From Kiritimatiellia bacterium (GTDB lineage Bacteria; Verrucomicrobiota; Kiritimatiellia; CAIVKH01): a DNA stretch of 64,000 nt. A model generated the notes under the pieces. The model was not told the origin of the DNA. It was given only the letters and a program-made list of their open reading frames with translations, and did no database searches. The translations under genes and the position numbers were made by a program. The number at the start of each line of letters is the position of its first letter. Position 1 is the first letter of the stretch. Positions 20,531 through 36,551 of this stretch are shown piece after piece. The stretch is taken from contig JBDHQM010000002.1 in NCBI GenBank assembly GCA_039807095.1, positions 97,261 to 161,260 of the forward strand. Reading direction: 5' to 3'.

Positions 20531-21750
20531 GCCGACTTCGCACCCGCCTCGCCGTAAAATCTGACAACGCGTTTTGCGATAGCCTCCATCTGGAATTCCG
20601 ATTCAATCCGTGCGAATGCGGCCCGACTCATCGCCGCGCGCAAAAGCGGATCATCCAGCAAACGCAGTATCCCCGTCGCCAGCGCGTCCGTATCGCCGAC
20701 AGGCACCACCACCCCGTTTTCGCCATCGCGCACCACATATTCATTGCCCGGAATTGCGCTCACTACTGCCGGGACGCCCCAACTTTGCGCTTCCAGCAGC
20801 GCGTTTGAAATACCTTCGCGCCGGGACGGCAGCAGCAGCATAAGCGCGTTGCGATACAGCGGACTTAAATCTGACACTCGCCCCGCAAAATGAACCGACG
20901 CCTCCGCACCGCGCACTCTCAAGAACTTCTGCCACACGCCCGAATCGCCCGCGCCGGCCACCACCAACTTCGCGGCGGGCCGATGCTCATGCACACGTGC
21001 CCACGCATCAAACAGGACGTCGAAGGCCTTGTTCTCAACCGGACGCGTGAGATTGGCGACATACAACACAACTCCATTCGCACCCGGATCGGGGCGCGGC
21101 TCACGGGTGGGCATAGCAATTCCATTAGGGATCACCGCGATTCGCTTTTCATCAACACCGTTTGCGGCCAGATCGGCCTTCATTTCCGGAGTCAACGCAA
21201 TGAAGTACAAACGCCTGCGCGATTCGATCATCGTGCGGCGAAAGGGGATGCCCGATTCATTCGAAAAAACCGGGAGGTTTGCCCCTTTGCATACAACCGG
21301 AACTCCTGCTCGCCGGGCCCACCACGCGCACCAGCCCGCCGTCAACGCCGCCACGTGTACATGCCAGATATCCACTTGATCGCGCAACCGGCACATCCGC
21401 CATGCGGTGCCTCCGAGCATCAGCCACAAATTTAGCCGCTTCACTATCCACGCGGCGACACAACTGCAGCGGGACGGCGAGAGCGCCGCAGCAGGCGGCG
21501 TCTTACCCGAGTCCGACTTTCCGACAGCAGGTTTCGAGCGGCGGCCGAGCAATGCCTCGATACGCGGCATTCTAATTACACGAACTCCATTCTCAATAGC
21601 ATCGCGCGGCGAATCGCGGCGCGCGCGAGTCGTGAGAATTGTCACAGAATGGCCTTGTCGCACCAGCTCTTCCGACAGGCGACGGCACTGCTGTTCCGCC
21701 CCGCCCGTTTGGTCGGGAAAGTATGACGCGATAAACATTCCGATCTTCAT
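20527..21750 (-). CDS. glycosyltransferase family 4 (start taken at MKIGMF)
   Basis: GT-B fold (REGISNALLEAQSWGVPAV). Confidence 0.75.
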   Translation of the reverse strand: MKIGMFIASYFPDQTGGAEQQCRRLSEELVRQGHSVTILTTRARRDSPRDAIENGVRVIRMPRIEALLGRRSKPAVGKSDSGKTPPAAALSPSRCSCVAAWIVKRLNLWLMLGGTAWRMCRLRDQVDIWHVHVAALTAGWCAWWARRAGVPVVCKGANLPVFSNESGIPFRRTMIESRRRLYFIALTPEMKADLAANGVDEKRIAVIPNGIAMPTREPRPDPGANGVVLYVANLTRPVENKAFDVLFDAWARVHEHRPAAKLVVAGAGDSGVWQKFLRVRGAEASVHFAGRVSDLSPLYRNALMLLLPSRREGISNALLEAQSWGVPAVVSAIPGNEYVVRDGENGVVVPVGDTDALATGILRLLDDPLLRAAMSRAAFARIESEFQMEAIAKRVVRFYGEAGAKSA

Positions 21751-21775
21751 GGCGGGCGCGCGCAATGACGCGATT

Positions 21776-22624
21776 CTACGGTCGCTTCCACATATAAATG
21801 CTGCCACCGATAAGCGTGAGATTAGCCGCGCGCAGCCAAGGATTTCGCCGCAGTGCTCCCAGCACGCGGGCACCGATTCCCACGCGCGCGTCTCCGCGCG
21901 GCAAGCTCAACAAATCCATCGGTGAATAGAACTGCGCAAATCCTGCCTCACGCCCCAGCGAACACAAATCGGCAAAGCTATACCAGTGCACAGCGGGGCG
22001 TGGCGAATAGTCCGCCAGCGTCGGCTTATAGTGCAGATGTTGAAAGACGTAGGATTCTCTTACTGTGCGCGGGAACCAGTTGTAGAACGGCACGCGATAT
22101 TCCCCGTTGCGGCCCAGCGGTGAAAAACGGAGCCGGTTTGTCGTCCGGACAAACAAAACACCCCCCGGCGCCAGCACGCGAAACATTTCCGCCAGACTTT
22201 TACCGGGCGAGTCCACATGCTCCAACACACCCTCCATCAGCACAATTCGCTGCGAGTGATCCGGAAACGGCATTTCTTCCGCAACACCCCATTTCACACG
22301 CGATGCATCGCCCAAATACTCACGCGCCACTGCCAGGCTTTCCTCCACCGGTTCAATGCCCACGGCATCAAACCCCTTTTCAAGCAGCGTTTTCACTGTG
22401 AGCGGGCTCGGCCCGCACCCCACAACCGCCACCGTTTTGAGGCCAGCCGACAGATCAATAAGGCGACGACAGCACTCGAGAATATCGTTAAGCCCGCCAC
22501 GTTTGAGTGTTGTCGGCAAGCGTTCATCAAACCGCTTCCGTTTATGTTCAACGTAGCGAGCAGGCAAATCCGGAACACCGGATGAAAGAGGGCGATTGCG
22601 ATACAAGTCCGAATACTTCATCAC
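21776..22624 (-). CDS. class I SAM-dependent methyltransferase
   Basis: Motif I VVGCGPS. Length and later motifs fit the Methyltransf_11/12 type. Confidence 0.75.
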   Translation of the reverse strand: MMKYSDLYRNRPLSSGVPDLPARYVEHKRKRFDERLPTTLKRGGLNDILECCRRLIDLSAGLKTVAVVGCGPSPLTVKTLLEKGFDAVGIEPVEESLAVAREYLGDASRVKWGVAEEMPFPDHSQRIVLMEGVLEHVDSPGKSLAEMFRVLAPGGVLFVRTTNRLRFSPLGRNGEYRVPFYNWFPRTVRESYVFQHLHYKPTLADYSPRPAVHWYSFADLCSLGREAGFAQFYSPMDLLSLPRGDARVGIGARVLGALRRNPWLRAANLTLIGGSIYMWKRP

Positions 22625-23388
22625 CGGCTCCCTTTCGCGCGCGAATGTTGAGACACGATAAACTCCGCAATGCGCTGTGCTTCGGCATCAAGGTTTGAAA
22701 TGCCACTCGCGCGAAGCACAGGAACGCCTCGACCCTCCAGTGCATCAGCAAGTGCATTCAGTAGGGTCGCGCCCTCCTGAAAACGTGTCTTCATTTTATC
22801 TACGGGTTCACTCCCGAACAGGACAGGGGGCTGTCCGCGTCCTTGTACGCGCTCTACGCAGACATCGGCCGGAGTATCCACACAAATCAAGACATCCGGC
22901 GCGGGCAACAATGCGGCATAGCGCTCAGCGTCCGCAGGTTTGCCCAGCCCGCGATAACCGCGCAACGAGAAGAATCGGTGCGCAAACCCTTCGTCGAGCA
23001 CAACAATTCCATCCAGTTGTTTCGCCAATTGAAATTCAAAGCCTGAAGTCAACACCGCGCGAAATACCGGATCGCGCCAACTCGAATCCGTCCCGGATAC
23101 AGCGAGCCATTCGTGCAGCAACGCGACGAAATCCGCGTGCTCGACTGCAAAGCGATGCCAATCGTTCAGCCCGTGGGGCAGTCCGAGAAAATGCCGGCGC
23201 CAGGCAGGAATGAGCCGGCCACACAGATTGCCAATGACTCCGAAATCACGCGCACGCAAACCCCGCTCAACTACGTCCTCGCGATTCGCAGCCTCGATAC
23301 CGCGCGCGCGCAACGCCTTCACCACCACTCCGCAGAGCGTGCTCTTGCCCGCCGCAGGGACGCCGCAAAACTCTACGCGCATTTTCAC
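22621..23388 (-). CDS. P-loop NTPase, small-molecule kinase-like
   Basis: N-terminal Walker A motif (GVPAAGKST) and a Walker B-like VVLDEGF. 255 aa. Coupled by ATGA overlap to the methyltransferase. Confidence 0.5.
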   Translation of the reverse strand: MKMRVEFCGVPAAGKSTLCGVVVKALRARGIEAANREDVVERGLRARDFGVIGNLCGRLIPAWRRHFLGLPHGLNDWHRFAVEHADFVALLHEWLAVSGTDSSWRDPVFRAVLTSGFEFQLAKQLDGIVVLDEGFAHRFFSLRGYRGLGKPADAERYAALLPAPDVLICVDTPADVCVERVQGRGQPPVLFGSEPVDKMKTRFQEGATLLNALADALEGRGVPVLRASGISNLDAEAQRIAEFIVSQHSRAKGSR

Positions 23389-24749
23389 GAACCGGCCTCA
23401 TTCGGAATCAGCCAAAACGAGTGCTTCGCAAATGGGCGGATATCGTAATTCGCCCGAATATTCGAGACCTCCATCATCCGGCTCATCGTCTCGCGAATTT
23501 CTGCCTCGTCCAGCCCTGGAAATTTCTGGGAGCTGTAACCATCCGACACCAGTTGTGCCTCGCGCCGGGCATGAAGTCGTACCCGCCACATGCGCTTCGC
23601 CTCGGCCAACATCCGTTGTTTTGCAGAAAATTGACCGAGCGGTTTCCTGCCCGCCAATTCCACCAGCTCATTTGTAATCCGTTCCGCGGATGTCACCCCG
23701 GACAGACCGGCCATATAGCGCTTGGCAGTTGTCCACTGTTCGTCCGTCCACAAGACACCTCGCTCGCGAGCCGTCTTTCGCCCCTCCAGTGCAACGAACA
23801 GTTCATCCATCGAAAACACGTTCTCACTCAATGCATTCGGCAAGTGATTTTCATATCGCGGATAGCGCTTGGGGCGATACGCAATCGCCGGAACATCCAG
23901 AAGGAAAGATTCGACGGCGGTTGTGCAGTTAAAGTGAATCACCACTTCCGACGCCAGTATCCACTCGTGCACATTGCCGCTGCCATCCACATGCAAACGC
24001 GGATGCCTCTTGGCCAGCTCCAACCACGGTGCATGGCTTTCAGAGGGATGTGGGCGGACGACCACCGCATGCTTTGGATAACGCGCGAGAATCTCAGGCA
24101 CCATGGCGAGATACGCCTCGTGCATCTCGCGATGCATGGCGATCCACTTCTCCATGTAGCCGGGCTCGTTGTTGATCGGATATCGGGCCAATAATTTCTT
24201 CACTTCTTCCGGCGATTTGAAGTGATTGTGAAAAGCGAAGTTGGTGTTCACCAGCAGCATCGGACCGAACCGCGCGCGCAGTTGCTCGACGGGCTCCCGA
24301 TAAAAGGGCCGCAATTCCGGGCGCAAGAAATCGAAGCGAGGGTTGCCGCACAACGCAATCCGATCAACGTATTGTGGATATTCCTCACAGATCGCCTCGC
24401 GTTGCACCTCACCCCACGCGAAGAATCGCGTCACCTGATCCAGGGATTCGGGGACGATCCGCTGTTTGCGATACAGCCACGCATCAAAAAAAACCAATCC
24501 CTCTTCATCCCACGAAACTAATTCGTGTCCCATCGCCCGGCAGCGGCGAAACCAATCCGTTCGCGTCGCGGCAACGCTCTTGTCCAAATAGATCGCGGGT
24601 TCGACCAGATCCGCATAATCCCAGAGTCGCCCCTGCACGCCGAAAAGGACCGGATGCCCTCTGCTCAAAACATTGAGCGCGAGCCACAGCTTTCCGTGAA
24701 ACTCACGTGCCTTCGTCTCTACAGGTATAATGACAGCCGTCTTCTTCAC
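23385..24749 (-). CDS. TagF/KpsS-fold transferase ('surface carbohydrate biosynthesis protein' type), candidate CMP-ulosonate or polyol-phosphate transferase
   Basis: An RPHP motif and a downstream HFNCTTAVESF block resemble the CDP-glycerol glycerophosphotransferase / capsule-synthesis fold. Located beside neuB and neuA. Confidence 0.45.
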   Translation of the reverse strand: MKKTAVIIPVETKAREFHGKLWLALNVLSRGHPVLFGVQGRLWDYADLVEPAIYLDKSVAATRTDWFRRCRAMGHELVSWDEEGLVFFDAWLYRKQRIVPESLDQVTRFFAWGEVQREAICEEYPQYVDRIALCGNPRFDFLRPELRPFYREPVEQLRARFGPMLLVNTNFAFHNHFKSPEEVKKLLARYPINNEPGYMEKWIAMHREMHEAYLAMVPEILARYPKHAVVVRPHPSESHAPWLELAKRHPRLHVDGSGNVHEWILASEVVIHFNCTTAVESFLLDVPAIAYRPKRYPRYENHLPNALSENVFSMDELFVALEGRKTARERGVLWTDEQWTTAKRYMAGLSGVTSAERITNELVELAGRKPLGQFSAKQRMLAEAKRMWRVRLHARREAQLVSDGYSSQKFPGLDEAEIRETMSRMMEVSNIRANYDIRPFAKHSFWLIPNEAGS

Positions 24750-24758
24750 GCTGCATTC

Positions 24759-27011
24759 CTACAATCCAAATCGCTCCAGGCGCTCAAGGGCCACCCAAAA
24801 ACCCTCTCCACCATTTTTGTGGCCCTGCCAGATTTCCGGCATGAAGGAGGCGCCGGGGCACACCTCCTTCAACTGCGCGCAAAGCGCGGGAAAGTCCAGC
24901 TCGCCCTCGCCCACCTGCAATCCCTCTCCATCGGTTCCACGAGCATCCGCCATGTGCAGATGCGCAGCAAACGGCCCCACCTGATCCACAAACTCCTTGA
25001 ACGAAGTTTTGTAATGATTGCAGGCGAGTTTTGAGTGACTCACATCGAAGCAGAGGCGCAAGTTATTCGCGCGGCAGAACTCCACTGTGTCTTCTGCTTT
25101 GACAAAAAGATTGAGGTACATCTGCCCGCCGAAATACCAGGGGAATGGAGGCAGAGTCTGGCCAATAATCTCGACGCCGTCCGAATCTAACTCCCGCAAA
25201 CTGCGCGCCATAATTTCGTAGCGCTTGCTTACTTCGGGTTCCGACAAAAATCCGTCTCGCGAAAATCCGCCCAAACTAACAATAATGACCGGGCGCGTTG
25301 CCTTCTTAAAGTAGGGCTTCAGCTTTCGCGTCAAGTCCACCACGCGCTGGAGCTCGGCAATGGATCGCGCACGATGCGCTTCATCCGGATTTGAGAGATC
25401 GAGAAGGTGATCGCCATTGAACGTATCGGGACTGTGCACCTTGAAGTCCAGATCAAGAGGCTCGCCGAAGTAGCGCTCATACTCCTCATCCATGTCCTTA
25501 AAGCTCAGATGAAACTCGATGAAGTCGGGATTCGACTTCTTTCGTATTTCCTGGAAGTCGTGCCAACGCACCGTGACCCCCCACGGCCGACTAAAGCGAT
25601 AGTGCCGCGCCTGTGCGATGGGCTGCTCAATGTCACCGGCAAAAAAGAAATCGCCTTTCTTTAGATTGCGCGTGGCGCGCCGACCGATCAGCTCCGGTTT
25701 TCGATTTGGCTGCAACCCCCGCCCGGGGCTCCGAATTTCCACCGCGCTCTCATCAATCTCCTCGCCTTGTGCGATATCGCGTGCAGCAACAAGACTCTTG
25801 GCAAGGTTTGAGCGATTCATCAGTTCGCCCTGCGAAAGCGTGCGCGGATGGCCCGTTCCGATGGATTCTTCAACCTGCCGAATACCCTCAACCATTGCCG
25901 CAAATTCGTCCGGCAACAGACTCGCTTTATGGTCCGATCCTTCGAGGTTTCGGTCCAGCGTGATGTGCTTTTCGATAATCTTCGCGCCCTGCGTCACAGC
26001 CGAAATGGCAACGTGAATACCGCGCTCGTGACCGGAATATCCGACGAGACATCCGCCGATCGAGCGTAACCGGGACAGGTAGGCAAGGTTAATGTCTTTG
26101 AACGGCGCGGGGTACGTTGAATTGCAGTGCAACAGCGCATAGGCACTTCCATTCCGGCGCAGCACCTTCACGGTTTCCGCGATCTCATCCTCCGTGGACA
26201 TACCCGTCGAAAGAATCAACGGCTTATACGTTCGCGCAAGCTTCTCGATGAACGGATGATTCGTCAAATCCGCCGAAGCAACTTTGTATGCCTCCATCCC
26301 GTTGCGCTCCAGCACGTCCAGGCTCTCTTCTTCCCACGGAGTGCACAGCACGGCGAGGTCGAGAGAGCGGGCGTAATCAAACAGCGCAAGCATATCCGGG
26401 ACGGGTAGCTCGAACTTTTCCAACAGATTGAGCGTATATTGAGCGCCGAGGTCCTCCCCCGCCACACCGCCCGGCGTGTTGCGGTACAAATGCGACATTG
26501 AGCGCATCTGAAACTTCACCGCATCTACACGCGCATCGCGCGCCGCGCGGATCAGGCGACGCGCCATCTCCACGCTGCCGTTATGATTGATCCCGACCTC
26601 CGCGATGACGAAAACCGGCCCCTCGTCGCTGATTACGCGGTCACCGATTTTCAGCCCTTCAAACAATCCGCGACGGCGCACCACGCCAATCAAACGGCGG
26701 CGCGCGTCCAGCAGCGGCAGAAATTTTACGCGATCGGAAAAACGACGGCGAATTTCCTCCTGCGATTCGCCTTCCAGTGCCACCGCACAGGAGCGCACGA
26801 GAATCGTGCGAACCGGCTCGCGCAGATTCGCCACAGATTGCTTCATCAGCCAGCGTCGCACGTCGCCGTCGGTCAGAACACCCTCCAGCACACCGTACTC
26901 ATCCACGCCGATAACAAATCCCTTATGATTCGCGTCGAGGCGATGCAACGCCTCCGCAATCGGCGTATCCGCATTCACGCTCCACGGTCGGACATCGCGT
27001 TCGATGATCAT
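24759..27011 (-). CDS. neuB: tri-domain fusion: CBS pair + N-acylneuraminate/ulosonate-9-P synthase (NeuB, with SAF domain) + xylose-isomerase-like TIM-barrel sugar isomerase/epimerase
   Basis: NeuB core motif (VFVIAEVGINHNGS...VKFQ) and a SAF domain. The C-terminal roughly 260 aa has the TIM-barrel AP_endonuc_2-like pattern. The ORF as listed overlaps neuA by 43 bp, so the start was taken at MIIERD. Confidence 0.75.
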   Translation of the reverse strand: MIIERDVRPWSVNADTPIAEALHRLDANHKGFVIGVDEYGVLEGVLTDGDVRRWLMKQSVANLREPVRTILVRSCAVALEGESQEEIRRRFSDRVKFLPLLDARRRLIGVVRRRGLFEGLKIGDRVISDEGPVFVIAEVGINHNGSVEMARRLIRAARDARVDAVKFQMRSMSHLYRNTPGGVAGEDLGAQYTLNLLEKFELPVPDMLALFDYARSLDLAVLCTPWEEESLDVLERNGMEAYKVASADLTNHPFIEKLARTYKPLILSTGMSTEDEIAETVKVLRRNGSAYALLHCNSTYPAPFKDINLAYLSRLRSIGGCLVGYSGHERGIHVAISAVTQGAKIIEKHITLDRNLEGSDHKASLLPDEFAAMVEGIRQVEESIGTGHPRTLSQGELMNRSNLAKSLVAARDIAQGEEIDESAVEIRSPGRGLQPNRKPELIGRRATRNLKKGDFFFAGDIEQPIAQARHYRFSRPWGVTVRWHDFQEIRKKSNPDFIEFHLSFKDMDEEYERYFGEPLDLDFKVHSPDTFNGDHLLDLSNPDEAHRARSIAELQRVVDLTRKLKPYFKKATRPVIIVSLGGFSRDGFLSEPEVSKRYEIMARSLRELDSDGVEIIGQTLPPFPWYFGGQMYLNLFVKAEDTVEFCRANNLRLCFDVSHSKLACNHYKTSFKEFVDQVGPFAAHLHMADARGTDGEGLQVGEGELDFPALCAQLKEVCPGASFMPEIWQGHKNGGEGFWVALERLERFGL

Positions 27012-27724
27012 GTCGGATTCTCCCCGCGTTGAAGCAGAAAACTCGCCCACTCCAAATCCATTTCGGAATCAATATCTACTCCAGCCTCTTCAGTCATTTT
27101 GAACAAAACGATTTTGCCGCCCAACCGATTGTTTCCCTGCCGCAGCACCCACGGTTTGAAAATGTAAATGGATCCGTTCTCCCGATAGCGTGGCGCCATG
27201 TCCTGACGCCGCGGGCGTACACGCCAGTCGCGATTGACCGCGACCGCAGATCCATCCTGTTCTTCCCAAAGAAACAGATGAGAGGGCGAAACAGAGACAA
27301 CAGAATCGGCATTCGATTCCTCTAGCAAGGCAATAGCGGAATCAATATCCATTCCGGTTCGAATCGGACACGTTGCTTGTAGAAATACGACGAGGTCAGG
27401 GTCTCCGCCCCGGTCTGCCGCGATGCAATCCAACGCGTGCAACAGCGCAGCCTCGGATGTTGTCGAGTCTTCCGCCAAGACCGCCGGGCGATCAATAATC
27501 TGTGCGCCGGCATCTTGTGCTGCGCACTTAATCTCGGCGTCATCCGTGCTGACATACACACAAGAGACGCGTTGAGACTCAAGCGCATCGGCGACGCTCC
27601 ACGCAATCAGTGGGCGCCCCGCTACAGGACGCACATTTTTTCGCGGCACACCCTTGGATCCGCCGCGCGCCGGGATGATGGCGACGACGTTTTCGAATCG
27701 CTGACTGTGCTGGGAGGGGTTCAT
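27008..27724 (-). CDS. neuA: acylneuraminate (CMP-ulosonate) cytidylyltransferase
   Basis: IPARGGSKGVPRKN motif of the CTP_transf_3 family. Confidence 0.85.
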   Translation of the reverse strand: MNPSQHSQRFENVVAIIPARGGSKGVPRKNVRPVAGRPLIAWSVADALESQRVSCVYVSTDDAEIKCAAQDAGAQIIDRPAVLAEDSTTSEAALLHALDCIAADRGGDPDLVVFLQATCPIRTGMDIDSAIALLEESNADSVVSVSPSHLFLWEEQDGSAVAVNRDWRVRPRRQDMAPRYRENGSIYIFKPWVLRQGNNRLGGKIVLFKMTEEAGVDIDSEMDLEWASFLLQRGENPT

Positions 27725-29481
27725 GCTGAGGCTTCGGCGTTCTTCGCCTTTTTCTCCACCACAAAATCGCCAAGCACCAACACGTCAATCTCCGTACCCA
27801 GGAAGCACGCAACCGCCTGCTCCGGAGTTTGGACAATCGGCTGCCCCTTTACATTGAAGGATGTATTCAACAGCACAGGACAGCCGGTCTTCTTATGAAA
27901 CGCAGTGAGCAACTCGTAGAAGCGCTCGTTGTTTTCCCGACCGACCGACTGCACCCGGCACGAATCATCCACATGGACCGTTGCCGGAATCGCCGACTTC
28001 TTCGCCGGCTGCACTTTGCACGCGATCAGCATGTGCGGACTTTCCTGCCCGATGTCGAAGTATTCATGCACATATTCCTTCAAACACGCCGGAGCAAGCG
28101 GCCGGAAATACTCGCGGAACTTCACGTTGTCGTTAATGTGATCGCGCATCGCCTCCGGATACGGCTTGGCAAGAATACTGCGATTGCCGAGCGCGCGCGG
28201 ACCGAATTCTGCTCCGCCCTGATACCAGCCAATCACCTTCCCCGCAGCCAGTTTGTCAGCAACATCGGCGTAAAGATTTGGCGGACGCGTGTATGCCACG
28301 CCGGCACTCTTGAGCGCCTGCTCCATTTCGGCCGACGTGTAGTCGCCGTGCAGATAATAGTTGTGGTTTTTGACCGGCCGGTAATTCGGATCATGTGCGC
28401 GCTGCGCAAGGAAACACGCGCCGATCGCCAGTCCGGCGTCACCCGATGCAGGCTGCACGAAGATTTCGTCAAATATATGCTCGCGCTCAATCCGCCCGTT
28501 CATCGAGCAGTTCAGCGCAACGCCGCCGCTCAAGCACAGATACTTGATTCCCGTATCTTTGCGCGCATTGCGCAGCACACCCAACACAACCTCCTCAAGG
28601 CGCCGCTGCAAGGCAGCGGCAATATCTTTATGGTGCTGATTTAGCGTTGCGACATCGTACTTCCGGCGCGGGCCGAACACTTCGACAAAGCGGTCCGACA
28701 CCCATTTATTCCGCTCATAATAATACGCCATCCATTCCGGATTGATGGTGATAGTGTATTTCCCGTCATACTGAATGATATCTTCAAAAAACGAATAGTA
28801 GCTCCGCGTCTGCCCCGGCACGATATGATCGGAATCACCAAAGCACGCCAGCGCCATGATGATGCCCTCATGGTGCACATTCTTCCACCCGAGATAGCAG
28901 GTGATCGCGGCATACACCAATCCGAGTGAATGCGGGTAATCGTAGCGGTCATACAAGACCTCAATCGCGCCTGCCCGCCCGACGCCCAGTTTCATCGTCT
29001 TGTTGTCGCCGATGCCGTCAATGCTCAGCAACACAGCATCCTGAAATCCGCTCGGATAATACGAACTCGCCAGATGTGTGAGGTGGTGATCGAAATAGGA
29101 AATCTTTCCCGTAAAACCGGTCTTCTCGCGGATGATCTCTTCCACATTGAACATCTCTTTGATGCGCTCAAACTCCTGAATCATCATGCCCACGCGTTTG
29201 GGGTCGCGAATTGCCGCCTCGAGATACGTTCTGCGAATGCACGCCTCCGGATCCCCGCCGAATGCAATTTCGTCCACATCGGCCATCGTCAGCTTTGCCT
29301 TCCGTAGGCAATCCTGAATTGCATCTGTCGGAAACAGCCGGCTGTGCTTATCCAGTGAATAGCGCTCCTGCTCGCACGCGGCGATCAGCTTGCCATCCAC
29401 CATAATCGCGGCTGCTGTATCGTGTGCCAGATACTTGATCCCCAAAATCACTTTTTTCATTCGATTCATCCTTTCCAACAT
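27721..29481 (-). CDS. carbamoyltransferase (NodU/CmcH family); start probably at 29460
   Basis: FDHHLTHL metal-binding motif and a YrdC/Kae1-like C-terminal region. Confidence 0.8.
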   Translation of the reverse strand: MLERMNRMKKVILGIKYLAHDTAAAIMVDGKLIAACEQERYSLDKHSRLFPTDAIQDCLRKAKLTMADVDEIAFGGDPEACIRRTYLEAAIRDPKRVGMMIQEFERIKEMFNVEEIIREKTGFTGKISYFDHHLTHLASSYYPSGFQDAVLLSIDGIGDNKTMKLGVGRAGAIEVLYDRYDYPHSLGLVYAAITCYLGWKNVHHEGIIMALACFGDSDHIVPGQTRSYYSFFEDIIQYDGKYTITINPEWMAYYYERNKWVSDRFVEVFGPRRKYDVATLNQHHKDIAAALQRRLEEVVLGVLRNARKDTGIKYLCLSGGVALNCSMNGRIEREHIFDEIFVQPASGDAGLAIGACFLAQRAHDPNYRPVKNHNYYLHGDYTSAEMEQALKSAGVAYTRPPNLYADVADKLAAGKVIGWYQGGAEFGPRALGNRSILAKPYPEAMRDHINDNVKFREYFRPLAPACLKEYVHEYFDIGQESPHMLIACKVQPAKKSAIPATVHVDDSCRVQSVGRENNERFYELLTAFHKKTGCPVLLNTSFNVKGQPIVQTPEQAVACFLGTEIDVLVLGDFVVEKKAKNAEASA

Positions 29482-29492
29482 TTCGTAAATTT

Positions 29493-30389
29493 CTATATCG
29501 CTCGCGTCGGCTCTTCCCCCGATTTAACCGCAGAATTCACCGCACGTGACAAATAAATACCCGCAGGCGAAACGTAAAATTCACGCGGCGCATCACCAGG
29601 ACCGATATCCGTTCCCTTCATAAACTTTCGGATTTGATGGAAGTGCAGATACATCATCTCTTCGCCGTTCGCACCGTATACCCGGCCCTCACACCAGCGC
29701 ATGCTCAACGATGGGTCCTCCAGCATCAAGCGCTGATGTTTTCCGCTCGTCGTCCACACCCGCTCCCACCACACGCGTGGCAGCGGCAACCGGCGAATCC
29801 AGCGCGTGGTCAACCGGCCAATGGCGCTGAGCTGATACCACTGCAGCACCTTGGATAACCCGTCTTCATCCACTCGCCAGTATCTGGCAGAGTCCTCTAC
29901 CCGTTCCTGAATTTTCGAAACCCGGCGAAAAAGGTTGTTCCATGCCTCCTGATTCCGAAACAGGGTGAAGTGTCCCGATATACGGTTCGGACGCGCGGAG
30001 ATCACGTCGTAATTCGCCAGAAGCTCCTCCGTCAGAAAGTGCCGCAGATTTCCCCAGATCACATCCAGATCGCAGCATCCCCAGAAATCGTACCCCTTCA
30101 ATTCCTCCTCGAAAATCAAACCGCTCATCATTTTGAGATCGCACAGCTTATAGGTGAATGAGGGATTCACCCGAATTCGATACCCCGACGCCGCGCTTGC
30201 GCGAGTATTGAAACGATCAATATCCATCGGAAAAAACTTAACGTTTTCCGGCGTCGAGGCGGGCGCGGATTGATCGGTGAAGATCAGCCAATCCACATCG
30301 GGGTTGAAACGACACGAATGTAGCAAGGCCGGCATCCAAAATGGCAATGGACCGAACCACACGTTGACAAGCGCTATGCGCGCACTCAT
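29493..30389 (-). CDS. putative glycosyltransferase-like protein (DxD-containing, GT-A-like)
   Basis: CCDLDVIW DxD-like motif. Lies among the GT genes. Confidence 0.3.
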   Translation of the reverse strand: MSARIALVNVWFGPLPFWMPALLHSCRFNPDVDWLIFTDQSAPASTPENVKFFPMDIDRFNTRASAASGYRIRVNPSFTYKLCDLKMMSGLIFEEELKGYDFWGCCDLDVIWGNLRHFLTEELLANYDVISARPNRISGHFTLFRNQEAWNNLFRRVSKIQERVEDSARYWRVDEDGLSKVLQWYQLSAIGRLTTRWIRRLPLPRVWWERVWTTSGKHQRLMLEDPSLSMRWCEGRVYGANGEEMMYLHFHQIRKFMKGTDIGPGDAPREFYVSPAGIYLSRAVNSAVKSGEEPTRAI

Positions 30390-31177
30390 TCCGACCCCCT
30401 TCCCAACAGGGAAACGAAGATATCGGATGCAAAACGACGCATGCGATAAATAAGAGAGAAGTGCGACCGGAGGCGCCGGCGCTCGCGCTTCATTTCGGAC
30501 GAATGCTTTTTTTGCGCAGAAACGCCGGTTGCATCATATTCGGCCACCAGTACGTCACAGCGTTCCATTCGAGCGCCGCCTAAAACTGCGCGCACAAAAA
30601 AATCCCAGTCCGCGATATATTTGAATGTCGTGTCATACGGGCCGAATTTCTCGAATGCTCTACGCCGGATAAATGCCGACTGATGATTCACCGGGCGGCG
30701 GTAGAAGTGATGCAGATCGAGCGCACCTGAATGTATTTTTTTGACCGGTGCACGCCCATCCGGCCACACGCGAACATGTGCGCCGACCAGCACGTCTACA
30801 TCACTCTTTTCGAGCAATGGCGCAATACTCGCAACTGTGCTCCGGTTCACAAATGCGTCTCCACCGTTGAGAAAAAGCAGCCACTCTCCCGATGCAGCGC
30901 GCGCGCCTTTATTCATCGCGTCGTAAATGCCGCGATCCGGTTCTGAAATCAATTTTGCAATGGCATCATTGTGCGCCTGGAGAATCGCCAACGTTCCATC
31001 TGTTGAAGCGCCGTCCACAACAATCCACTCAAACAATTCTGTTCTCTGACCGAGAATCGAATCAATCGTCCGCTGTATTCGTCCGACCTCATTGCGGCAC
31101 ACCGTAATGACGCTGATCAGCGGACGGACACGTTCGCTCGACGCATATTCGGCTACAGCTTTTGGGCCGGAGTTCAC
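30386..31177 (-). CDS. glycosyltransferase family 2
   Basis: ISVITVCRN...DGASTDGT...DAD-like GT-A motifs. Confidence 0.8.
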   Translation of the reverse strand: MNSGPKAVAEYASSERVRPLISVITVCRNEVGRIQRTIDSILGQRTELFEWIVVDGASTDGTLAILQAHNDAIAKLISEPDRGIYDAMNKGARAASGEWLLFLNGGDAFVNRSTVASIAPLLEKSDVDVLVGAHVRVWPDGRAPVKKIHSGALDLHHFYRRPVNHQSAFIRRRAFEKFGPYDTTFKYIADWDFFVRAVLGGARMERCDVLVAEYDATGVSAQKKHSSEMKRERRRLRSHFSLIYRMRRFASDIFVSLLGRGSE

Positions 31178-32217
31178 GAAGTTACCCCCGAACGGGATTT
31201 TTGCTGCATCCGCATAAAGTCAAATAGCCGCTCTGCAATCAACCCCACCCCAGTGGCAGCAAATACTAAGTGCGCAAATCCCCCGACCTTCCACGGCTGC
31301 GGGCATCGCCACAGAAGGATTGCCGAGGCAGCAAGCGCGATTCCAACGGCGCGCGCAACGCGCTGCTGTGACACTCGTCCGTTTGCAGCGCTCACGTAGC
31401 GTCGCGCCAACGCCCGCCGCTGCTCTGCCGATAACTTTCGCGAAGCAGCCCATTTCAACAGATCGCCCCAGACCTGTTGGATTCCCGCATACTGCAATTG
31501 ACGCGGCCTGCCCGTCACCCGGTTGCCGGAATGAACGCGCGCCATGGCTACCGGCGACAACACATCACTGGAATAAAGTCGTCCAACTGCTGCCAATCGA
31601 ACCCACAGGTGCGTATCCTGTCCCGTGCGCAAGCGTGTATTAAAATTACCGCTCTTCTGCAAAAGCTCCCGCCGCAACACGATTCCATCGGTACAAAACG
31701 CGCCCGACCCGCCGCGCGCCAGGCTTTCAAATAACTGTTCAGGAAGAATCGCATCCCGAATTCGAAGTACTTCTGGCCAATTGGCTTTTTCCCAGCGCTC
31801 GTGAGCCGCCTCGTCTTCAAAGATCATGCCGACAGCATCATAGACACCATCCGCATCCGGATGCGCCTCCAGAGTTCGAATCACACCGCGAAACCGACCG
31901 GGAAGAAAAATGTCGTCTGCATCCAAGAATGCCACCAAGGGATGCACTGCATGTTCGATCCCAAGATTCCGCGCTGCTCCGGCGCCTCGATTTTCGCCAT
32001 TGGCGTGGCGGAGCAAGCGGACCTGAGCAAATTGCGCAACCAAATGCTCACAAATCTCGAGTGACCCATCTGTAGAACCGTCATCCACCAGAATCACCTC
32101 ACCCGTCTCGGGTTGCGCCAATGCAGAGCGCACCGCACTCTCGACAAACGGCGCGGCGTTAAAAACCGGAATCACTACAGAAATCATTAGCGCAGGATTG
32201 TGTGCTGTTTCAGACAT
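31174..32217 (-). CDS. glycosyltransferase family 2
   Basis: ISVVIPVFN...VDDGSTDGS...DADD motifs. Confidence 0.8.
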   Translation of the reverse strand: MSETAHNPALMISVVIPVFNAAPFVESAVRSALAQPETGEVILVDDGSTDGSLEICEHLVAQFAQVRLLRHANGENRGAGAARNLGIEHAVHPLVAFLDADDIFLPGRFRGVIRTLEAHPDADGVYDAVGMIFEDEAAHERWEKANWPEVLRIRDAILPEQLFESLARGGSGAFCTDGIVLRRELLQKSGNFNTRLRTGQDTHLWVRLAAVGRLYSSDVLSPVAMARVHSGNRVTGRPRQLQYAGIQQVWGDLLKWAASRKLSAEQRRALARRYVSAANGRVSQQRVARAVGIALAASAILLWRCPQPWKVGGFAHLVFAATGVGLIAERLFDFMRMQQKSRSGVTS

Positions 32218-33109
32218 CCGGCACCCCTACGATTGGCTCCTCGGCGATCACTCCACGAACTGAGCGCTGTTCGACTGCACGCCAGTAGTGTGCGCGTAGC
32301 TTCGTTTTCATCCCGGTTTCAGTGCTTCGCGTCAATTGCCCGCCGTGCTGGCGATATAACATTTGCGTTTCCGGCAGGGAGAACACAGGGATATCCGCCT
32401 TTGCTGCGCGCCGCAAGAAGTCCCGATCGCCCGCACACGGCCACGGAGCGAAGCCGCCCAGGCGGGTGAGGACTGTCTTGGAAAGCCCAATGGCGCCCTT
32501 GACCTGGCGCGGATGTTTCTTCTCGGCGGGCTGTAGCCGGTCATCGCAAATCGCCGCCATCGGACGCACAAGAAATGCGGGCGTTATGGCGGCGCATTGA
32601 CGACAAAAAGAATAGAAGGACGCGAGAGCGCCGGGCACCAGCGCATCGTCAGCATCCACGAACAGGACAAACTCACCGCGGGATGCCAGCAGTAGAGAGT
32701 TGCGAATAACAAACAGTCCACAATGGGACCGGAAGTTCAGCACGCGAACGCGTCTACGCATCTCCGATGAAAGTGCGGCGATATACCGGTGTGCTGCGGA
32801 AAGCGTAGCTTCACAACAGTCTATCGCGATCAACACTTCCAGCTCCACCCCAACCGGCGCAGGTTGGTGCAGGATGGAATCCAAGCAATCTGCCAAATAG
32901 CGATCTACAGCCCGGGCAGCGATCAGCACAGAAAACACGCCCGGATCGGATTCGCGGACCAAGGAATTCACGGGACGACAAGATTGATTGATATTGCGCT
33001 CCCACGCTGCAGCCTGCGCAGCAGCCGAACGCGCAGCTACCATCCCGCTTGCGTATCGCCACAATGCGCCCGCAATCATGACGAACCTCCAGGGATATGG
33101 GCCGCCCAA
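32210..33109 (-). CDS. glycosyltransferase family 2-like (start probably 33079)
   Basis: VLIAARAVDRYL...FVDADD motifs. Confidence 0.6.
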   Translation of the reverse strand: MGGPYPWRFVMIAGALWRYASGMVAARSAAAQAAAWERNINQSCRPVNSLVRESDPGVFSVLIAARAVDRYLADCLDSILHQPAPVGVELEVLIAIDCCEATLSAAHRYIAALSSEMRRRVRVLNFRSHCGLFVIRNSLLLASRGEFVLFVDADDALVPGALASFYSFCRQCAAITPAFLVRPMAAICDDRLQPAEKKHPRQVKGAIGLSKTVLTRLGGFAPWPCAGDRDFLRRAAKADIPVFSLPETQMLYRQHGGQLTRSTETGMKTKLRAHYWRAVEQRSVRGVIAEEPIVGVPDV

Positions 33110-33885
33110 AAATCGGGCTCATATTTTCCCCACGCATGGCACCCGAACGGCAAACGCCCGTTCATGCGAGCCACATAGCTCGATGGCTCCAGTTCCAGCG
33201 CAAAATACATCGCTTCCTCTTCGCGAGGAATCCGGAAACCGGGAGGCGCAAACATTGTCCAGAACATATCTTCATTTCCCGGCCACTGCGCAGCGAACTT
33301 CCCGTGCGTCATCAGGGTCTGGCGAAAACCCGGTATACGGCGCAGCGAGAAACCGCCATTGCCCACGCGAAAATCACGGCGATACCAGAGTCGCGCCAAT
33401 CCCGGCCACTGCACCAACCGTGGCCGCGCCTCGCGCACATGGCGATGGCGCAATAGGTCCCGACTGCCCCACGGCGCGCCGATATAGTCATACCCACGCG
33501 CGCACCAGTCCTCCAATTCATCGCGGAAAACAAAGGCATCCAACTGATAAATCAGCAAGTATTCCCACCCGCGAAATCGGGCATAAAAATCATCGGAAAG
33601 CAGCAGGCGGCTGTATGCGTCAACGCTCACAAATGCCGATGCTGGGAAATACTCGGTTTTCACTCCCTCAAACTCCGGAGGCAGGATCAAACCTTCCGGG
33701 CAAATGATGCGGATGTCGTGGCGGCCCAAAATACGGCGGCACTGTGCAAGCGACAGGCGCTCTTCCGCGCTGAGCGTCTCCTTGAAGCAGGGCACTAATA
33801 CGACACAACTCATTTTGTCATCCACACGTTCCCGCACACCCGGCGCATCACAGCCATACGTCACGCCGAGTTGACGATCTCCCAT
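33076..33885 (-). CDS. DUF5672-like glycan-cluster protein (putative GT-A-like transferase)
   Basis: YQLDAFVFRD DxD-type block. Typical companion of GT2 genes. Confidence 0.45.
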   Translation of the reverse strand: MGDRQLGVTYGCDAPGVRERVDDKMSCVVLVPCFKETLSAEERLSLAQCRRILGRHDIRIICPEGLILPPEFEGVKTEYFPASAFVSVDAYSRLLLSDDFYARFRGWEYLLIYQLDAFVFRDELEDWCARGYDYIGAPWGSRDLLRHRHVREARPRLVQWPGLARLWYRRDFRVGNGGFSLRRIPGFRQTLMTHGKFAAQWPGNEDMFWTMFAPPGFRIPREEEAMYFALELEPSSYVARMNGRLPFGCHAWGKYEPDFWAAHIPGGSS

Positions 33886-35174
33886 TGATGCGACACCAGA
33901 ACCCCCGAATTATCGCTGATCTTTTGCAGTTTGCCCGTCCCGTAAAAATCTCCGTCAACGACGAATAACTCCAGGCCGTCAATCAATTCATCCGCAACGG
34001 TTTTGCCAACCTTGCAGAACAGATGCACCACATAGCGTCCCGGAAGCAGCGGCAACTTTGGAATTGTGAGGCGAATCGTGCCGCGCCGCCCCAAGCGAAG
34101 GGTCTCCGGATGCGAGACGCGCGAAAAACACAGGAATTTTTCCTGACGGGTCTCACCCGATGCCACTCGAAAATAAATGAAGCACGGTTGATCGTTCATC
34201 ACGGTGCGCTCGTAATCCAACTCAACCGTAATGGTTTCGCCAGACTGCGCCGCGTTGATGACGACGTTTCGCTCGTTACGAATTCGATAACCAGTAAAAC
34301 GCACACTGCCGTCCCCGCTCCGGTCGGTTCGTTCGTTGATGGGCAGATGCGACGCCTTCGGTAAATGCGTTTTCAGATACGCTTCTGTAATTTCCTGCAC
34401 ATTGCCGATCATCTGGCACTCACCGCCGCGCAAGAGAACAGCCCGGGAACAGAGCGCCTGAATCGCGGCCATGTTGTGACTGACAAATAAAATCGTACGC
34501 CCCTCTTTTGAGACGTCTTGCATACGGCCAAGGCATTTCGCCTGAAACTCCGCATCACCTACCGCGAGCACCTCGTCCACGATCAATATCTCTGGCTCCA
34601 AATGCGCCGCCACCGCAAAGGCAAGTCGAACGTACATTCCGCTCGAATAACGCTTCACCGGTGTATCTATGAACGCGCTCAACTCGGCGAAGGCAACAAT
34701 CTCGTCCAGTTTGCGGGCGACTTCTCGCTCCTTCATGCCGAGAATCGTGCCGTTCATAAATACATTTTCTCGCCCGGTCAGCTCCGGATGGAAACCCGTA
34801 CCCACCTCAAGCAACGAACCAATTCGACCGCGAATTCGCACCTCGCCAGAGGTGGGTTCTGTGATGCGACTCAGAATCTTCAGGAGCGTGGATTTGCCCG
34901 CGCCATTGCGGCCGATGATGCCGACAACTTCTCCCGGCTGCACATCGAATGAAACATCGCGCAAGGCCCAGAAGTCCTGGTTTCCAGCCTGTTCTGCCTC
35001 GACCCGGCGACGCTCAGTCGCGCCGTATCCGATTTTTTCAAACGCCTTCCGCGGATCGCGGCCGCGCAGTTTGTGCCACCAATACTTGGTTTCATCAATT
35101 AGCGTGTGCCGCCCGATCGTCCCCAATCGGTATCGCTTCGAAAGATTGTGAATGGAAATTGCCGCCTCGCTCAT
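33861..35174 (-). CDS. wzt: ABC transporter ATP-binding protein Wzt with C-terminal glycan-binding domain
   Basis: Walker A GRNGAGKST, signature YSSGM, Walker B ILIVDE. A C-terminal extension of about 170 aa as in Wzt/TagH-type exporters. Confidence 0.85.
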   Translation of the reverse strand: MSEAAISIHNLSKRYRLGTIGRHTLIDETKYWWHKLRGRDPRKAFEKIGYGATERRRVEAEQAGNQDFWALRDVSFDVQPGEVVGIIGRNGAGKSTLLKILSRITEPTSGEVRIRGRIGSLLEVGTGFHPELTGRENVFMNGTILGMKEREVARKLDEIVAFAELSAFIDTPVKRYSSGMYVRLAFAVAAHLEPEILIVDEVLAVGDAEFQAKCLGRMQDVSKEGRTILFVSHNMAAIQALCSRAVLLRGGECQMIGNVQEITEAYLKTHLPKASHLPINERTDRSGDGSVRFTGYRIRNERNVVINAAQSGETITVELDYERTVMNDQPCFIYFRVASGETRQEKFLCFSRVSHPETLRLGRRGTIRLTIPKLPLLPGRYVVHLFCKVGKTVADELIDGLELFVVDGDFYGTGKLQKISDNSGVLVSHQWEIVNSA

Positions 35175-36007: not shown

Positions 36008-36012
36008 CGCGC

Positions 36013-36525: not shown

Positions 36526-36527
36526 GC

Positions 36528-36551
36528 AACTTTTACAATTTCGTAAAAGTT
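36528..36551. promoter_or_regulatory. perfect 9-6-9 palindrome AACTTTTAC-AATTTC-GTAAAAGTT, candidate GbsR operator
   Basis: Sits 3..28 bp upstream of the regulator start, in the 100-bp divergent intergenic region. Confidence 0.5.

What the first reader, a model, noticed from the sequence alone, without database searches (positions are those of the whole stretch)
27721..29481. NodU/CmcH-family carbamoyltransferase inside the glycan operon
A 580-aa O-carbamoyltransferase with an FDHHLTHL motif is ATGA-coupled to neuA. O-carbamoylation of a cell-surface polysaccharide or a nonulosonic acid is rare. It is known mainly from Nod factors, antibiotics and a few O-antigens. Together with the O-acetylation pair and two O-methyltransferases, the polymer is predicted to be unusually heavily decorated (acetyl, carbamoyl and methyl).
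Basis: partly seen in the sequence, partly recalled or inferred. Interest (0 to 1): 0.55.

Follow-up and report, generated by a model that had tools for sequence, protein, structure and literature searches.

The report
Carbamoyltransferase tied to sialic-acid-like sugar genes
This is a real, intact TobZ/NodU-type O-carbamoyltransferase gene, translationally coupled to the genes that make and activate a sialic-acid-like sugar, so it most likely adds a carbamoyl group to that sugar; this modification was not found in the literature searched, and the enzyme itself is an ordinary member of a large family.

Summary
The gene lies on the minus strand (27721..29481). Its probable start is the ATG at 29460, giving 579 aa. 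FDHHLTHL is present, and ATGA overlaps link it to a CMP-sugar synthetase gene and that gene to a NeuB-family fusion.

The protein matches both Pfam carbamoyltransferase domains over their full lengths. It aligns end to end with NovN, GdmN and TobZ (E about 1e-83 to 1e-86) and keeps the HxxH...D and KxR...SxN catalytic motifs. It is not a NodU orthologue (197 bits against a cut-off of 1000), and it is not HypF or TsaD.

The new result is a link at clade level. Carbamoyltransferases at least 47% identical to this one form one clade. In 22 of 23 such loci with enough flank, a NeuB or cytidylyltransferase gene lies within 10 kb. In more distant relatives the count is 0 of 6.

The most likely acceptor is therefore the nonulosonic (ulosonic) acid made next door. 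That sugar may be a chain-terminating cap read by the Wzt carbohydrate-binding module. Neither the acceptor nor the cap role has been tested. No paper in the searched library links carbamoylation to nonulosonic acids.

Overall this is a new member of a known enzyme family with a plausible new acceptor, and it is of moderate interest.

The parts
27721..29460 (-). O-carbamoyltransferase CDS, 579 aa. The ORF is open up to the ATG at 29481, which would give 586 aa. The N-terminal domain is Kae1/ASKHA-like and the C-terminal domain is YrdC-like.
29071..29094 (-). FDHHLTHL. It contains the HxxH metal-binding motif of the Kae1-like domain (H126 and H129 in 579-aa numbering).
   Evidence: Read. It aligns with the HHLAH of NovN and the HHEAH of GdmN. 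Motif definition from PMC9654439.
28114..28122 (-). K447-F-R449, the KxR motif of the YrdC-like domain, where carbamoyl-adenylate is formed.
   Evidence: Read. Conserved both in the clade and in the outgroups. Motif definition.
27853..27861 (-). S534-F-N536, the SxN motif of the YrdC-like domain.
   Evidence: Read. Universally conserved. Motif definition.
27721..27724 (-). ATGA overlap: the carbamoyltransferase stop and the cytidylyltransferase start.
27008..27724 (-). CMP-ulosonic/nonulosonic acid synthetase-like cytidylyltransferase (CTP_transf_3), 238 aa.
   Evidence: 77 bits; PseF model 117 bits, below cut-off; CMP-Neu5Ac synthetases, 1e-40 to 1e-27.
27008..27011 (-). Second ATGA overlap: the cytidylyltransferase stop and the NeuB-fusion start.
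24759..27011 (-). CBS-NeuB-SAF-AP_endonuc_2 fusion, 750 aa. It is the PEP-condensing (non)ulosonic acid synthase, fused to a xylose-isomerase-like TIM barrel.
23385..24749 (-). TIGR04396 'surface carbohydrate biosynthesis protein', 454 aa. It is the candidate nonulosonic-acid transferase and carries the DEEG and RPHPSE sialyltransferase-type motifs.
   Evidence: (346 bits against a cut-off of 125; BFO_1060 family E=1.2e-23).
22621..23388 (-). 255-aa P-loop, NMP-kinase-like protein. It is conserved after the transferase gene.
21776..22624 (-). Class I SAM methyltransferase. It is absent from the same position in L003.
29493..30389 (-). DUF6625 protein directly upstream. It is also next to the module in L003, L004 and L014.
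33861..35174 (-). Wzt ABC-transporter ATPase with a C-terminal Wzt_C carbohydrate-binding module.
   Evidence: ABC_tran 87 bits; Wzt_C 37.4 bits against a cut-off of 30.4.
35171..36007 (-). Wzm ABC-2 permease.

Best explanation
The gene encodes an active two-domain O-carbamoyltransferase of the TobZ/NovN/GdmN/NodU family. By homology, its C-terminal YrdC-like domain makes carbamoyl-adenylate from carbamoyl phosphate and ATP. Its N-terminal Kae1-like metal centre then transfers the carbamoyl group to a hydroxyl. The acceptor is inferred to be the sialic-acid-like (nonulosonic or ulosonic) acid made by the NeuB fusion and CMP-activated by the cytidylyltransferase, the two genes translationally coupled to it. 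That sugar is then placed on an ABC-transporter-exported (Wzm/Wzt) glycan by the TIGR04396 transferase. The family assignment, intact catalytic motifs, gene coupling and clade-wide neighbourhood association are shown here. The acceptor, the position carbamoylated, and the stage (free sugar, CMP-sugar, or after transfer) are inferred. The 64-kb window holds no aminotransferase, dehydratase or NeuC gene, so the sugar is more likely a deamino (Kdn-like) acid than pseudaminic or legionaminic acid.
For: Family: Pfam N and C domains at 1.5e-58 and 1.1e-70, both matched over their full lengths. Solved O-carbamoyltransferases match at 1e-83 to 1e-86 over residues 11-572. The HxxH...D and KxR...SxN motifs are present. 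Coupling: ATGA overlaps link the carbamoyltransferase, cytidylyltransferase and NeuB fusion. The surrounding operon of at least 18 genes has overlaps or gaps of 32 nt or less. Synteny: the same core (carbamoyltransferase, cytidylyltransferase, NeuB fusion, TIGR04396 gene, P-loop gene) occurs in Kiritimatiellia and Verrucomicrobia MAGs and in the distant phylum KSB3, although the surrounding glycosyltransferases differ. Locus L014 carries the same association with an unfused NeuB plus cupin and HAD phosphatase genes. Clade level: of 23 loci with carbamoyltransferase identity of at least 47% and at least 5 kb on both sides, 22 have a NeuB or CTP_transf_3 gene within 10 kb, and 19 have both. The exception, L015, has a CTP_transf_3 gene cut by the locus end. 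For relatives below 47% identity the count is 0 of 6 (Fisher p about 1e-5). In a neighbour-joining tree these loci form one clade, apart from NovN/GdmN, NodU and other contexts. The association holds whether the locus uses an ABC transporter (window) or a flippase-type Polysacc_synt exporter (L018), and whether the sugar pathway is Pse-type (L049) or the fusion type. The only constant partner is therefore the nonulosonic-acid pathway. The NeuB fusion also occurs widely without a carbamoyltransferase, as expected if the carbamoyltransferase is an optional tailoring enzyme.
Against: There is no biochemical or structural-chemistry evidence. Gene neighbourhood cannot separate action on the sugar from action on an adjacent residue of the glycan. 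The sampled loci are not phylogenetically independent, since many are similar marine contigs. The tree is neighbour-joining without bootstrap support. The identity of the NeuB product is unknown: the scores are below NCBIfam cut-offs for both NeuB (321 against 399.65) and PseI (251 against 340.25). No natural carbamoylated nonulosonic acid was found in the searchable literature. That absence leaves the prediction without chemical precedent.
Confidence: 0.6

Rival explanations
1. The enzyme carbamoylates a different residue of the glycan, such as a hexose of the repeat unit or the undecaprenyl-linked intermediate, at the cytoplasmic face before export. On this view its position beside the neuA/neuB-like genes reflects operon packing only. 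This would resemble the 7-O-carbamoyl-heptose of the Pseudomonas LPS core, which is cited from the author's general knowledge.
For: The gene sits in a long glycan operon with eight glycosyltransferase genes between 18120 and 33109 (three GT2, three GT4, plus DUF5672 and DUF6625 proteins, which are possible glycosyltransferases). More distant family members (34-44% identity) sit beside GT2 genes with no NeuB gene nearby. Polymer- or oligosaccharide-directed members exist, NodU in the nod operon being one.
Against: Across phyla the glycosyltransferase content changes while the carbamoyltransferase stays with NeuB and the cytidylyltransferase. ATGA coupling is specifically to the CMP-sugar synthetase. 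The clade with the NeuB context is separate from the GT2-context clade.
Confidence: 0.2
2. The enzyme N-carbamoylates an amino group of a 5,7-diamino nonulosonic acid precursor, giving a ureido substituent in place of N-acetyl. This would be analogous to the N-directed chemistry of TsaD.
For: Marine clade members lie inside Pse-type clusters with DegT aminotransferases and PseG- and PseI-like genes. The Kae1 fold can transfer carbamoyl-type groups to nitrogen or sulphur.
Against: The window holds no sugar aminotransferase, 4,6-dehydratase or NeuC gene in 64 kb. The only aminotransferase is a class I/II hisC-like gene beside hisD. All solved close relatives are O-carbamoyltransferases.
Confidence: 0.08
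3. The protein is not a glycan enzyme. It would instead be a HypF/TsaD-type maturation or tRNA-modification factor, or a tailoring enzyme of a secondary metabolite.
For: There are weak partial hits to HypF_C_2 (3.1e-5), TsaD (1.8e-4 Pfam; 2.4e-5 NCBIfam) and HypF (9e-4). The closest solved structures are antibiotic tailoring enzymes.
Against: Those hits cover only about 55-80 residues of the shared ASKHA core and fall far below the cut-offs (23.6 against 296; 17.5 against 466). There is no acylphosphatase or zinc-finger domain, and the domain order is opposite to HypF. No PKS, NRPS or aminoglycoside genes lie in the window. All neighbours are glycan genes.
Confidence: 0.02

Closest known systems
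TobZ (tobramycin), NovN (novobiocin) and GdmN (geldanamycin) O-carbamoyltransferases, all with solved structures
   Same: The alignment runs end to end, at E 1e-83 to 1e-86. The two-domain order is the same, Kae1-like then YrdC-like. The HxxH...D and KxR...SxN motifs are shared. The presumed mechanism is the same two-step route through carbamoyl-adenylate.
   Different: These enzymes branch well outside the window protein's clade. Their acceptors are antibiotic aglycones or sugars in Streptomyces natural-product clusters, whereas here the context is a cell-surface glycan operon. The window protein's clade has its own conserved residues in the Kae1-like half (W192, W243, R250, W253, R287) that the outgroups lack.
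NodU / NolO Nod-factor carbamoyltransferases
   Same: They share the same Pfam family. They carbamoylate a sugar hydroxyl of an exported glycoconjugate and are encoded in an operon with an ABC exporter.
   Different: Identity is 28%. The NodU NCBIfam score is 197 bits against a cut-off of 1000. There is no nodABC context. NodU served as the outgroup in the tree.
Chain-terminating caps of ABC-transporter-dependent O-antigens: the Klebsiella O12/O4 Kdo cap, and the O3/O7 methylphosphate cap made by kinase-methyltransferase pairs and read by the Wzt CBM
   Same: Wzm, plus Wzt with a Wzt_C module, are present. So is a CMP-ulosonic-acid pathway with a single dedicated transferase. That transferase is followed directly by a kinase-like P-loop protein and a methyltransferase.
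   Different: The transferase is of the TIGR04396/BFO_1060 type, not GT99, GT107 or GT137. The synthase belongs to the NeuB family, not KdsA. No coiled-coil 'ruler' was identified. A carbamoyl group on a cap has no precedent in the literature searched. The cap role is a hypothesis only.
Tannerella forsythia Pse/Leg-derivative transferases (Tanf_01245 / BFO_1060)
   Same: The neighbouring TIGR04396 protein matches the BFO_1060 family model (E 1.2e-23). It carries the D/E-D/E-G and HP motifs described for these enzymes and for bacterial sialyltransferases.
   Different: The score of 83.8 bits is below the family cut-off of 200. The target here is a polymer exported by an ABC transporter, not a protein O-glycan.

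Membership tests
TobZ/NodU/CmcH-type O-carbamoyltransferases (Pfam Carbam_trans_N + Carbam_trans_C) | Both Pfam domains score above gathering threshold and are matched over their full lengths | tested here: met
   PF02543 scores 199.3 bits (cut-off 24) over profile positions 2-345 of 346. PF16861 scores 237.1 bits (cut-off 27) over positions 1-170 of 170.
TobZ/NodU/CmcH-type O-carbamoyltransferases | Kae1-like domain carries the HxxH...D metal-binding motif | tested here: met
   H126-L-T-H129, D148 (in DGIG) and D341 (in SGDAG) align with the NovN and GdmN equivalents. Motif definition from PMC9654439.
TobZ/NodU/CmcH-type O-carbamoyltransferases | YrdC-like domain carries the KxR...SxN motif for carbamoyl-adenylate formation | tested here: met
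   K447-F-R449 and S534-F-N536 are conserved in the clade and in the outgroups.
TobZ/NodU/CmcH-type O-carbamoyltransferases | Domain order is Kae1-like then YrdC-like, with no acylphosphatase or zinc-finger domain (which distinguishes it from HypF) | tested here: met
TobZ/NodU/CmcH-type O-carbamoyltransferases | ATP- and carbamoyl-phosphate-dependent O-carbamoylation activity | not testable with these tools
   This needs an enzyme assay.
NodU (NCBIfam NF041651 equivalog) | Score above the equivalog cut-off, with a nod operon context | tested here: not met
   196.6 bits against a cut-off of 1000. Identity to an annotated NodU is 28%. There are no nodABC genes in the window.
HypF / TsaD (Kae1) carbamoyl or threonylcarbamoyl transferases | Score above the family cut-off, with the HypF domain set or a stand-alone Kae1 domain | tested here: not met
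   TsaD scores 23.6 bits against 296.1. HypF scores 17.5 bits against 466.1. The matched stretches cover only residues of about 278-357.
CMP-nonulosonic acid biosynthesis module (NeuB/PseI/LegI synthase + NeuA/PseF synthetase + transferase) | NeuB-family synthase and CTP_transf_3 cytidylyltransferase are both present | tested here: met
   PF03102 scores 267 bits and PF02348 scores 77 bits. Solved relatives are PseI and NeuB at 1e-53 to 1e-45, and CMP-Neu5Ac synthetases at 1e-40 to 1e-27.
CMP-nonulosonic acid biosynthesis module | Assignment to a specific sugar (Neu5Ac, Pse or Leg) by equivalog scores and precursor genes | tested here: not met
   NeuB scores 321 against 399.65, PseI 251 against 340.25, and PseF 117 against 205.7. 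The window holds no NeuC, PseB/C/H/G or LegB/C genes.
ABC-transporter-dependent glycan with a terminal cap read by the Wzt CBM | Wzm permease and Wzt ATPase, the latter with a C-terminal Wzt_C module | tested here: met
   ABC2_membrane scores 61.7 bits, ABC_tran 87 bits, and Wzt_C 37.4 bits (cut-off 30.4).
ABC-transporter-dependent glycan with a terminal cap read by the Wzt CBM | A non-reducing terminal residue that is required for export | not testable with these tools
   This needs the glycan structure and a deletion of the terminator gene.

The most novel reading that the evidence does not exclude
A whole clade of TobZ-like enzymes, found in marine Dehalococcoidia and other plankton, Bacteroidota, KSB3 and Kiritimatiellia, makes an undescribed class of carbamoylated nonulosonic acids. 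In this organism the carbamoylated sugar, possibly further phosphorylated or methylated by the adjacent kinase-like and methyltransferase genes, would be the non-reducing end cap. That cap would stop chain growth and be recognised by the Wzt carbohydrate-binding module to license export.
Probability: 0.25. Interest if true: 0.65.

Novelty: new member of a known kind. Interest (0 to 1): 0.4.

Why it matters
Nonulosonic acids are major surface determinants of bacteria. They affect immune evasion, phage receptors and flagellin glycans. Their known decorations are mostly acetyl, acetimidoyl, formyl, hydroxybutyryl, glyceroyl and methyl groups. A carbamoyl decoration would add a neutral, hydrogen-bonding, esterase-resistant substituent to that list. 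The clade-level gene association found here gives a simple genomic marker for where to look: a TobZ-like gene beside neuB/pseI and a CMP-sugar synthetase gene. It also gives a mass signature to search for in nonulosonic-acid surveys, +43.006 Da. If the sugar is also the chain-terminating cap, the locus would extend the cap-and-CBM quality-control model of ABC-transporter-dependent glycan export to a new cap chemistry and to the PVC superphylum. If not, this is one more tailoring gene in a glycan operon.

Tried and rejected
1. Only short sub-threshold hits to the shared ASKHA core were found.

2. NodU orthology was rejected: 197 bits against a cut-off of 1000, and 28% identity.

3. Literature precedent for carbamoylated nonulosonic acids was sought in six searches. 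These used carbamoyl or carbamoyltransferase together with Kdn, nonulosonic, pseudaminic/legionaminic, neuA/neuB or Wzt. None was relevant. The library covers open-access papers only, so this is absence of evidence.

4. I looked for a cultured host of a clade member with a solved glycan structure. The cluster look-up named only Nitritalea halalkaliphila and Dehalococcoidia MAGs, so nothing was usable.

5. The promoter/terminator scan of 18000..37500 gave counts at or below shuffled expectation (5 against 8.4; 25 against 26.2). It is uninformative about operon boundaries.

6. Sequence searches of the TIGR04396 protein and the P-loop protein against solved structures found nothing significant.

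7. The context look-up for the cyanobacterial NeuB fusion P0254 found no record.

8. The role of the AP_endonuc_2 domain could not be resolved. There are only weak hits, to the CbiR phosphodiesterase and the IolO epimerase. It could act as an isomerase (replacing the cupin of L014) or as a phosphatase (replacing the HAD of L014).

9. Structure prediction was not run. The tool returns no coordinates, so pocket geometry could not have been examined.
Full report
OBSERVATION

The ORF at 27721..29481 is real but lies on the minus strand. It translates to 586 aa from the first ATG and contains ...ISYFDHHLTHLASS.... The 100%-identical database protein (P0001, 579 aa), the gene call on its contig, and twenty homologues all begin at Met8, 'MKKVILG'. 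The start is therefore most likely the ATG at 29460, which has a GGAAAGGA stretch 8 nt upstream.

The carbamoyltransferase stop and the start of the next gene (27008..27724) share ATGA at 27721..27724. A second ATGA, at 27008..27011, joins that gene to the following one. On the twin contig, the run of genes from MarR to the MBOAT gene has 1-25 nt overlaps or gaps of 32 nt or less. A consensus promoter/terminator scan found nothing above shuffled expectation inside this run.

WHAT THE PROTEIN IS

Pfam matches Carbam_trans_N (1.5e-58) and Carbam_trans_C (1.1e-70), each over the whole profile. Among solved structures, NovN, GdmN, TobZ and a fourth carbamoyltransferase align over residues 11-572 at 2e-86 to 4e-81.

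The review PMC9654439 describes TobZ as an N-terminal Kae1-like domain (motif HxxH...D) followed by a C-terminal YrdC-like domain (motif KxR...SxN). The YrdC-like domain makes carbamoyl-adenylate from carbamoyl phosphate and ATP. The Kae1-like domain transfers the carbamoyl group to a hydroxyl. All of these motifs are present here: H126-L-T-H129, D148, D341, K447-F-R449 and S534-F-N536.

TsaD and HypF models hit only a 55-80 residue stretch, at 1e-4 to 1e-5, far below their cut-offs. The HypF-specific domains are absent.

The protein is also not a NodU orthologue. It scores 197 bits against a cut-off of 1000 and is 28% identical to an annotated NodU sitting in a nodABCSUIJ operon.

CONTEXT IN THE WINDOW

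On the minus strand, read 5' to 3', the genes are:
- a MarR regulator;
- Wzm;
- Wzt with a Wzt_C carbohydrate-binding module;
- a DUF5672 protein;
- three GT2 glycosyltransferases;
- a DUF6625 protein;
- the carbamoyltransferase;
- a CTP_transf_3 cytidylyltransferase;
- a 750-aa CBS-NeuB-SAF-AP_endonuc_2 fusion;
- a TIGR04396 'surface carbohydrate biosynthesis protein';
- a 255-aa P-loop protein;
- a SAM methyltransferase;
- three GT4 glycosyltransferases;
- an MBOAT and further membrane proteins.

The cytidylyltransferase's best solved relatives are CMP-sialic acid synthetases, at 1e-40 to 1e-27. The synthase's best solved relatives are PseI, SpsE and NeuB, at 1e-53 to 1e-45.

The TIGR04396 protein matches the BFO_1060 family at 1.2e-23. 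That family is named after the Tannerella forsythia pseudaminic/legionaminic-acid transferases (PMC5420450). The protein carries the D-E-E-G and R-P-H-P-S-E motifs reported for bacterial sialyltransferases, and these are conserved in its homologues.

No sugar aminotransferase, 4,6-dehydratase, NeuC or N-acetyltransferase gene occurs anywhere in the 64 kb.

COMPARATIVE EVIDENCE

The closest genomes are a Kiritimatiellia MAG (89% identity, syntenic from hisD through the whole operon) and an 'uncultured Verrucomicrobia' MAG (86%).

In Candidatus Vecturithrix (KSB3, 73-74%) the surrounding glycosyltransferases differ. The core is kept, downstream of a Wzt with a CBM: carbamoyltransferase, an inserted methyltransferase, cytidylyltransferase, NeuB fusion, TIGR04396-like gene and P-loop-like gene.

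In L014 (68%) the synthase is unfused and is accompanied by a cupin and a HAD phosphatase. The carbamoyltransferase still abuts the cytidylyltransferase and a TIGR04396 gene.

A metagenome scan used two peptide patterns internal to the carbamoyltransferase and returned 77 loci at 47-89% identity. I built HMMs for NeuB and CTP_transf_3 from the loci and counted neighbours, combining these loci with the other clade loci already fetched. Of 23 loci with at least 5 kb on both sides, 22 have one of the two genes within 10 kb and 19 have both. The single exception has a CTP_transf_3 gene cut off at the locus edge. None of the 6-11 loci with carbamoyltransferases below 47% identity has either gene (Fisher p about 1e-5 to 5e-7).

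A neighbour-joining tree places all loci at 47% identity or above in one clade. That clade is separate from NovN/GdmN, NodU, a Sinorhizobium pSymB/Planctomyces group (SxtJ-DUF5989 context) and a Bacteroidota group beside GT2 genes. The clade has its own invariant residues in the Kae1-like half (W192, W243, R250, W253, R287), which the outgroups lack.

A representative marine locus is a Pse-type cluster: DegT, PseG-like, NeuB/SAF, a DUF4910 aminopeptidase-like gene, the carbamoyltransferase, a weak BFO_1060-like gene, CTP_transf_3, GFO_IDH and DegT.

Conversely, the NeuB fusion is widespread. It is 55-60% identical in cyanobacteria, CPR bacteria, Chloroflexi, Lentisphaerae and Chitinophagaceae. 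In three loci examined it sits with a cytidylyltransferase but no carbamoyltransferase.

Three caveats apply. The loci are not independent samples. The tree has no support values. The HMMs were trained on the same loci.

INTERPRETATION

The constant partner of this carbamoyltransferase clade is the nonulosonic-acid pathway. This holds across export routes, phyla and sugar-pathway types. The carbamoyltransferase is dispensable for the NeuB-fusion pathway. The most economical reading is that it is a tailoring enzyme that carbamoylates the nonulosonic (ulosonic) acid.

The stage is unknown. Tight coupling to the cytidylyltransferase suggests action on the free or CMP-activated sugar, but this is inference.

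Clade members serve both 9-deoxy diamino sugars and, apparently, a deamino sugar. A hydroxyl common to both (O-4 or O-8) is therefore the parsimonious target. This is speculation.

In the window the sugar is probably Kdn-like. The locus lacks amino-sugar genes, and L014 supplies cupin (sugar isomerase-like) and phosphatase functions typical of a route through a sugar phosphate.

A further hypothesis concerns chain termination. In ABC-transporter-dependent O-antigen systems a Wzt CBM recognises a terminal cap. Known caps include Kdo and methylphosphate, the latter installed by kinase-methyltransferase pairs (PMC11231755). Here a single CMP-sugar-dependent transferase is followed directly by a kinase-like P-loop protein and a methyltransferase, and Wzt has the CBM. 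A carbamoylated ulosonic-acid cap is thus plausible but untested. I put it at about 0.25-0.3.

COMPARISON WITH THE KNOWN, AND NOVELTY

As an enzyme this is a new member of a well-known family. What appears undescribed is the acceptor class and the clade-wide genomic link. No paper in the searchable library contains both 'carbamoyltransferase' and 'nonulosonic'. Five other searches found no natural carbamoylated nonulosonic acid and no carbamoyl cap. The library is open-access only, so this is not proof of novelty.

VERDICT

Interest is moderate (0.4). The enzymology is ordinary, but the finding gives a concrete, cheaply testable prediction of a new nonulosonic-acid decoration, with a genomic marker that is common in environmental bacteria.

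Noticed in passing
window 24759..27011 (-); loci L101, L102, L103: The CBS-NeuB-SAF-AP_endonuc_2 fusion (about 750 aa) is conserved at 55-60% identity across Kiritimatiellia, Lentisphaerae, KSB3, Chloroflexi, cyanobacteria (Geminocystis, Scytonema, Leptolyngbyaceae), CPR Peribacteraceae and Chitinophagaceae. In every context examined a CTP_transf_3 gene lies nearby, and GFO_IDH or SDR oxidoreductases sit beside it in the Chitinophagaceae and CPR loci (L101, L102). Its product, and the role of the TIM-barrel domain (isomerase or phosphatase), are unknown.
   Followed up: partly
window 22621..23388 (-): This 255-aa protein has an N-terminal Walker A motif (GVPAAGKST) and LID-like arginines resembling NMP or deoxynucleoside kinases. 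It has no Pfam family above cut-off and no solved relative. It follows the TIGR04396 transferase gene in L003, L004, L005, L014 and L020. Together with the next gene, a methyltransferase, it recalls the kinase-methyltransferase terminator pairs of Klebsiella O3 and O7.
   Followed up: partly
window 5176..6246 and 38419..39783, with 1016..3810: The glycan gene island of about 32 kb (6285..38403) lies between a class I/II (hisC-like) aminotransferase and hisD. The hisD flank is conserved in the Kiritimatiellia MAG L004. An IS4-type DDE transposase (1016..2593) and an IS110-type transposase (2770..3810) lie just beyond the hisC-like gene.
   Followed up: partly
window 7403..18169 (-): The distal half of the operon may be a periplasmic, post-export modification set. 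It holds an MBOAT (16685..18169) with a 356-aa partner that has no family, a GT-C-like 571-aa membrane protein with weak ALG10/GT87/ALG3 hits (10563..12278), two large proteins with no family (764 aa and 603 aa), and a GT2 with a DUF2304 protein (8002..8733 and 7403..8188).
   Followed up: no
L049 8516..12814, also L017 and L018: In marine and other clade members the carbamoyltransferase is flanked by a DUF4910/DUF2172/HTH_47 aminopeptidase-like gene. In L049 it is also followed by a 367-aa protein with a weak BFO_1060-like match, all inside Pse-type clusters. The role of the aminopeptidase-like protein is unknown.
   Followed up: no
window 29493..30389 (-) and 33076..33885 (-): The DUF6625 and DUF5672 proteins are probably uncharacterised glycosyltransferase-like enzymes. 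DUF6625 is conserved immediately upstream of, or near, the carbamoyltransferase module in L003, L004 and L014.
   Followed up: no
L099 (Planctomyces sp. SH-PL62 plasmid) 7992..10536: A 39%-identical carbamoyltransferase there is followed by an SxtJ-family membrane protein and a DUF5989 protein, next to exosortase/EpsI genes. This is a different, recurrent context for the family.
   Followed up: no
window 36624..37763 (+): This is the only plus-strand gene inside the island. It encodes a 379-aa protein with a sub-threshold RgpF (rhamnan synthesis) match, is divergent from the MarR-Wzm-Wzt operon, and is conserved in L004.
   Followed up: no
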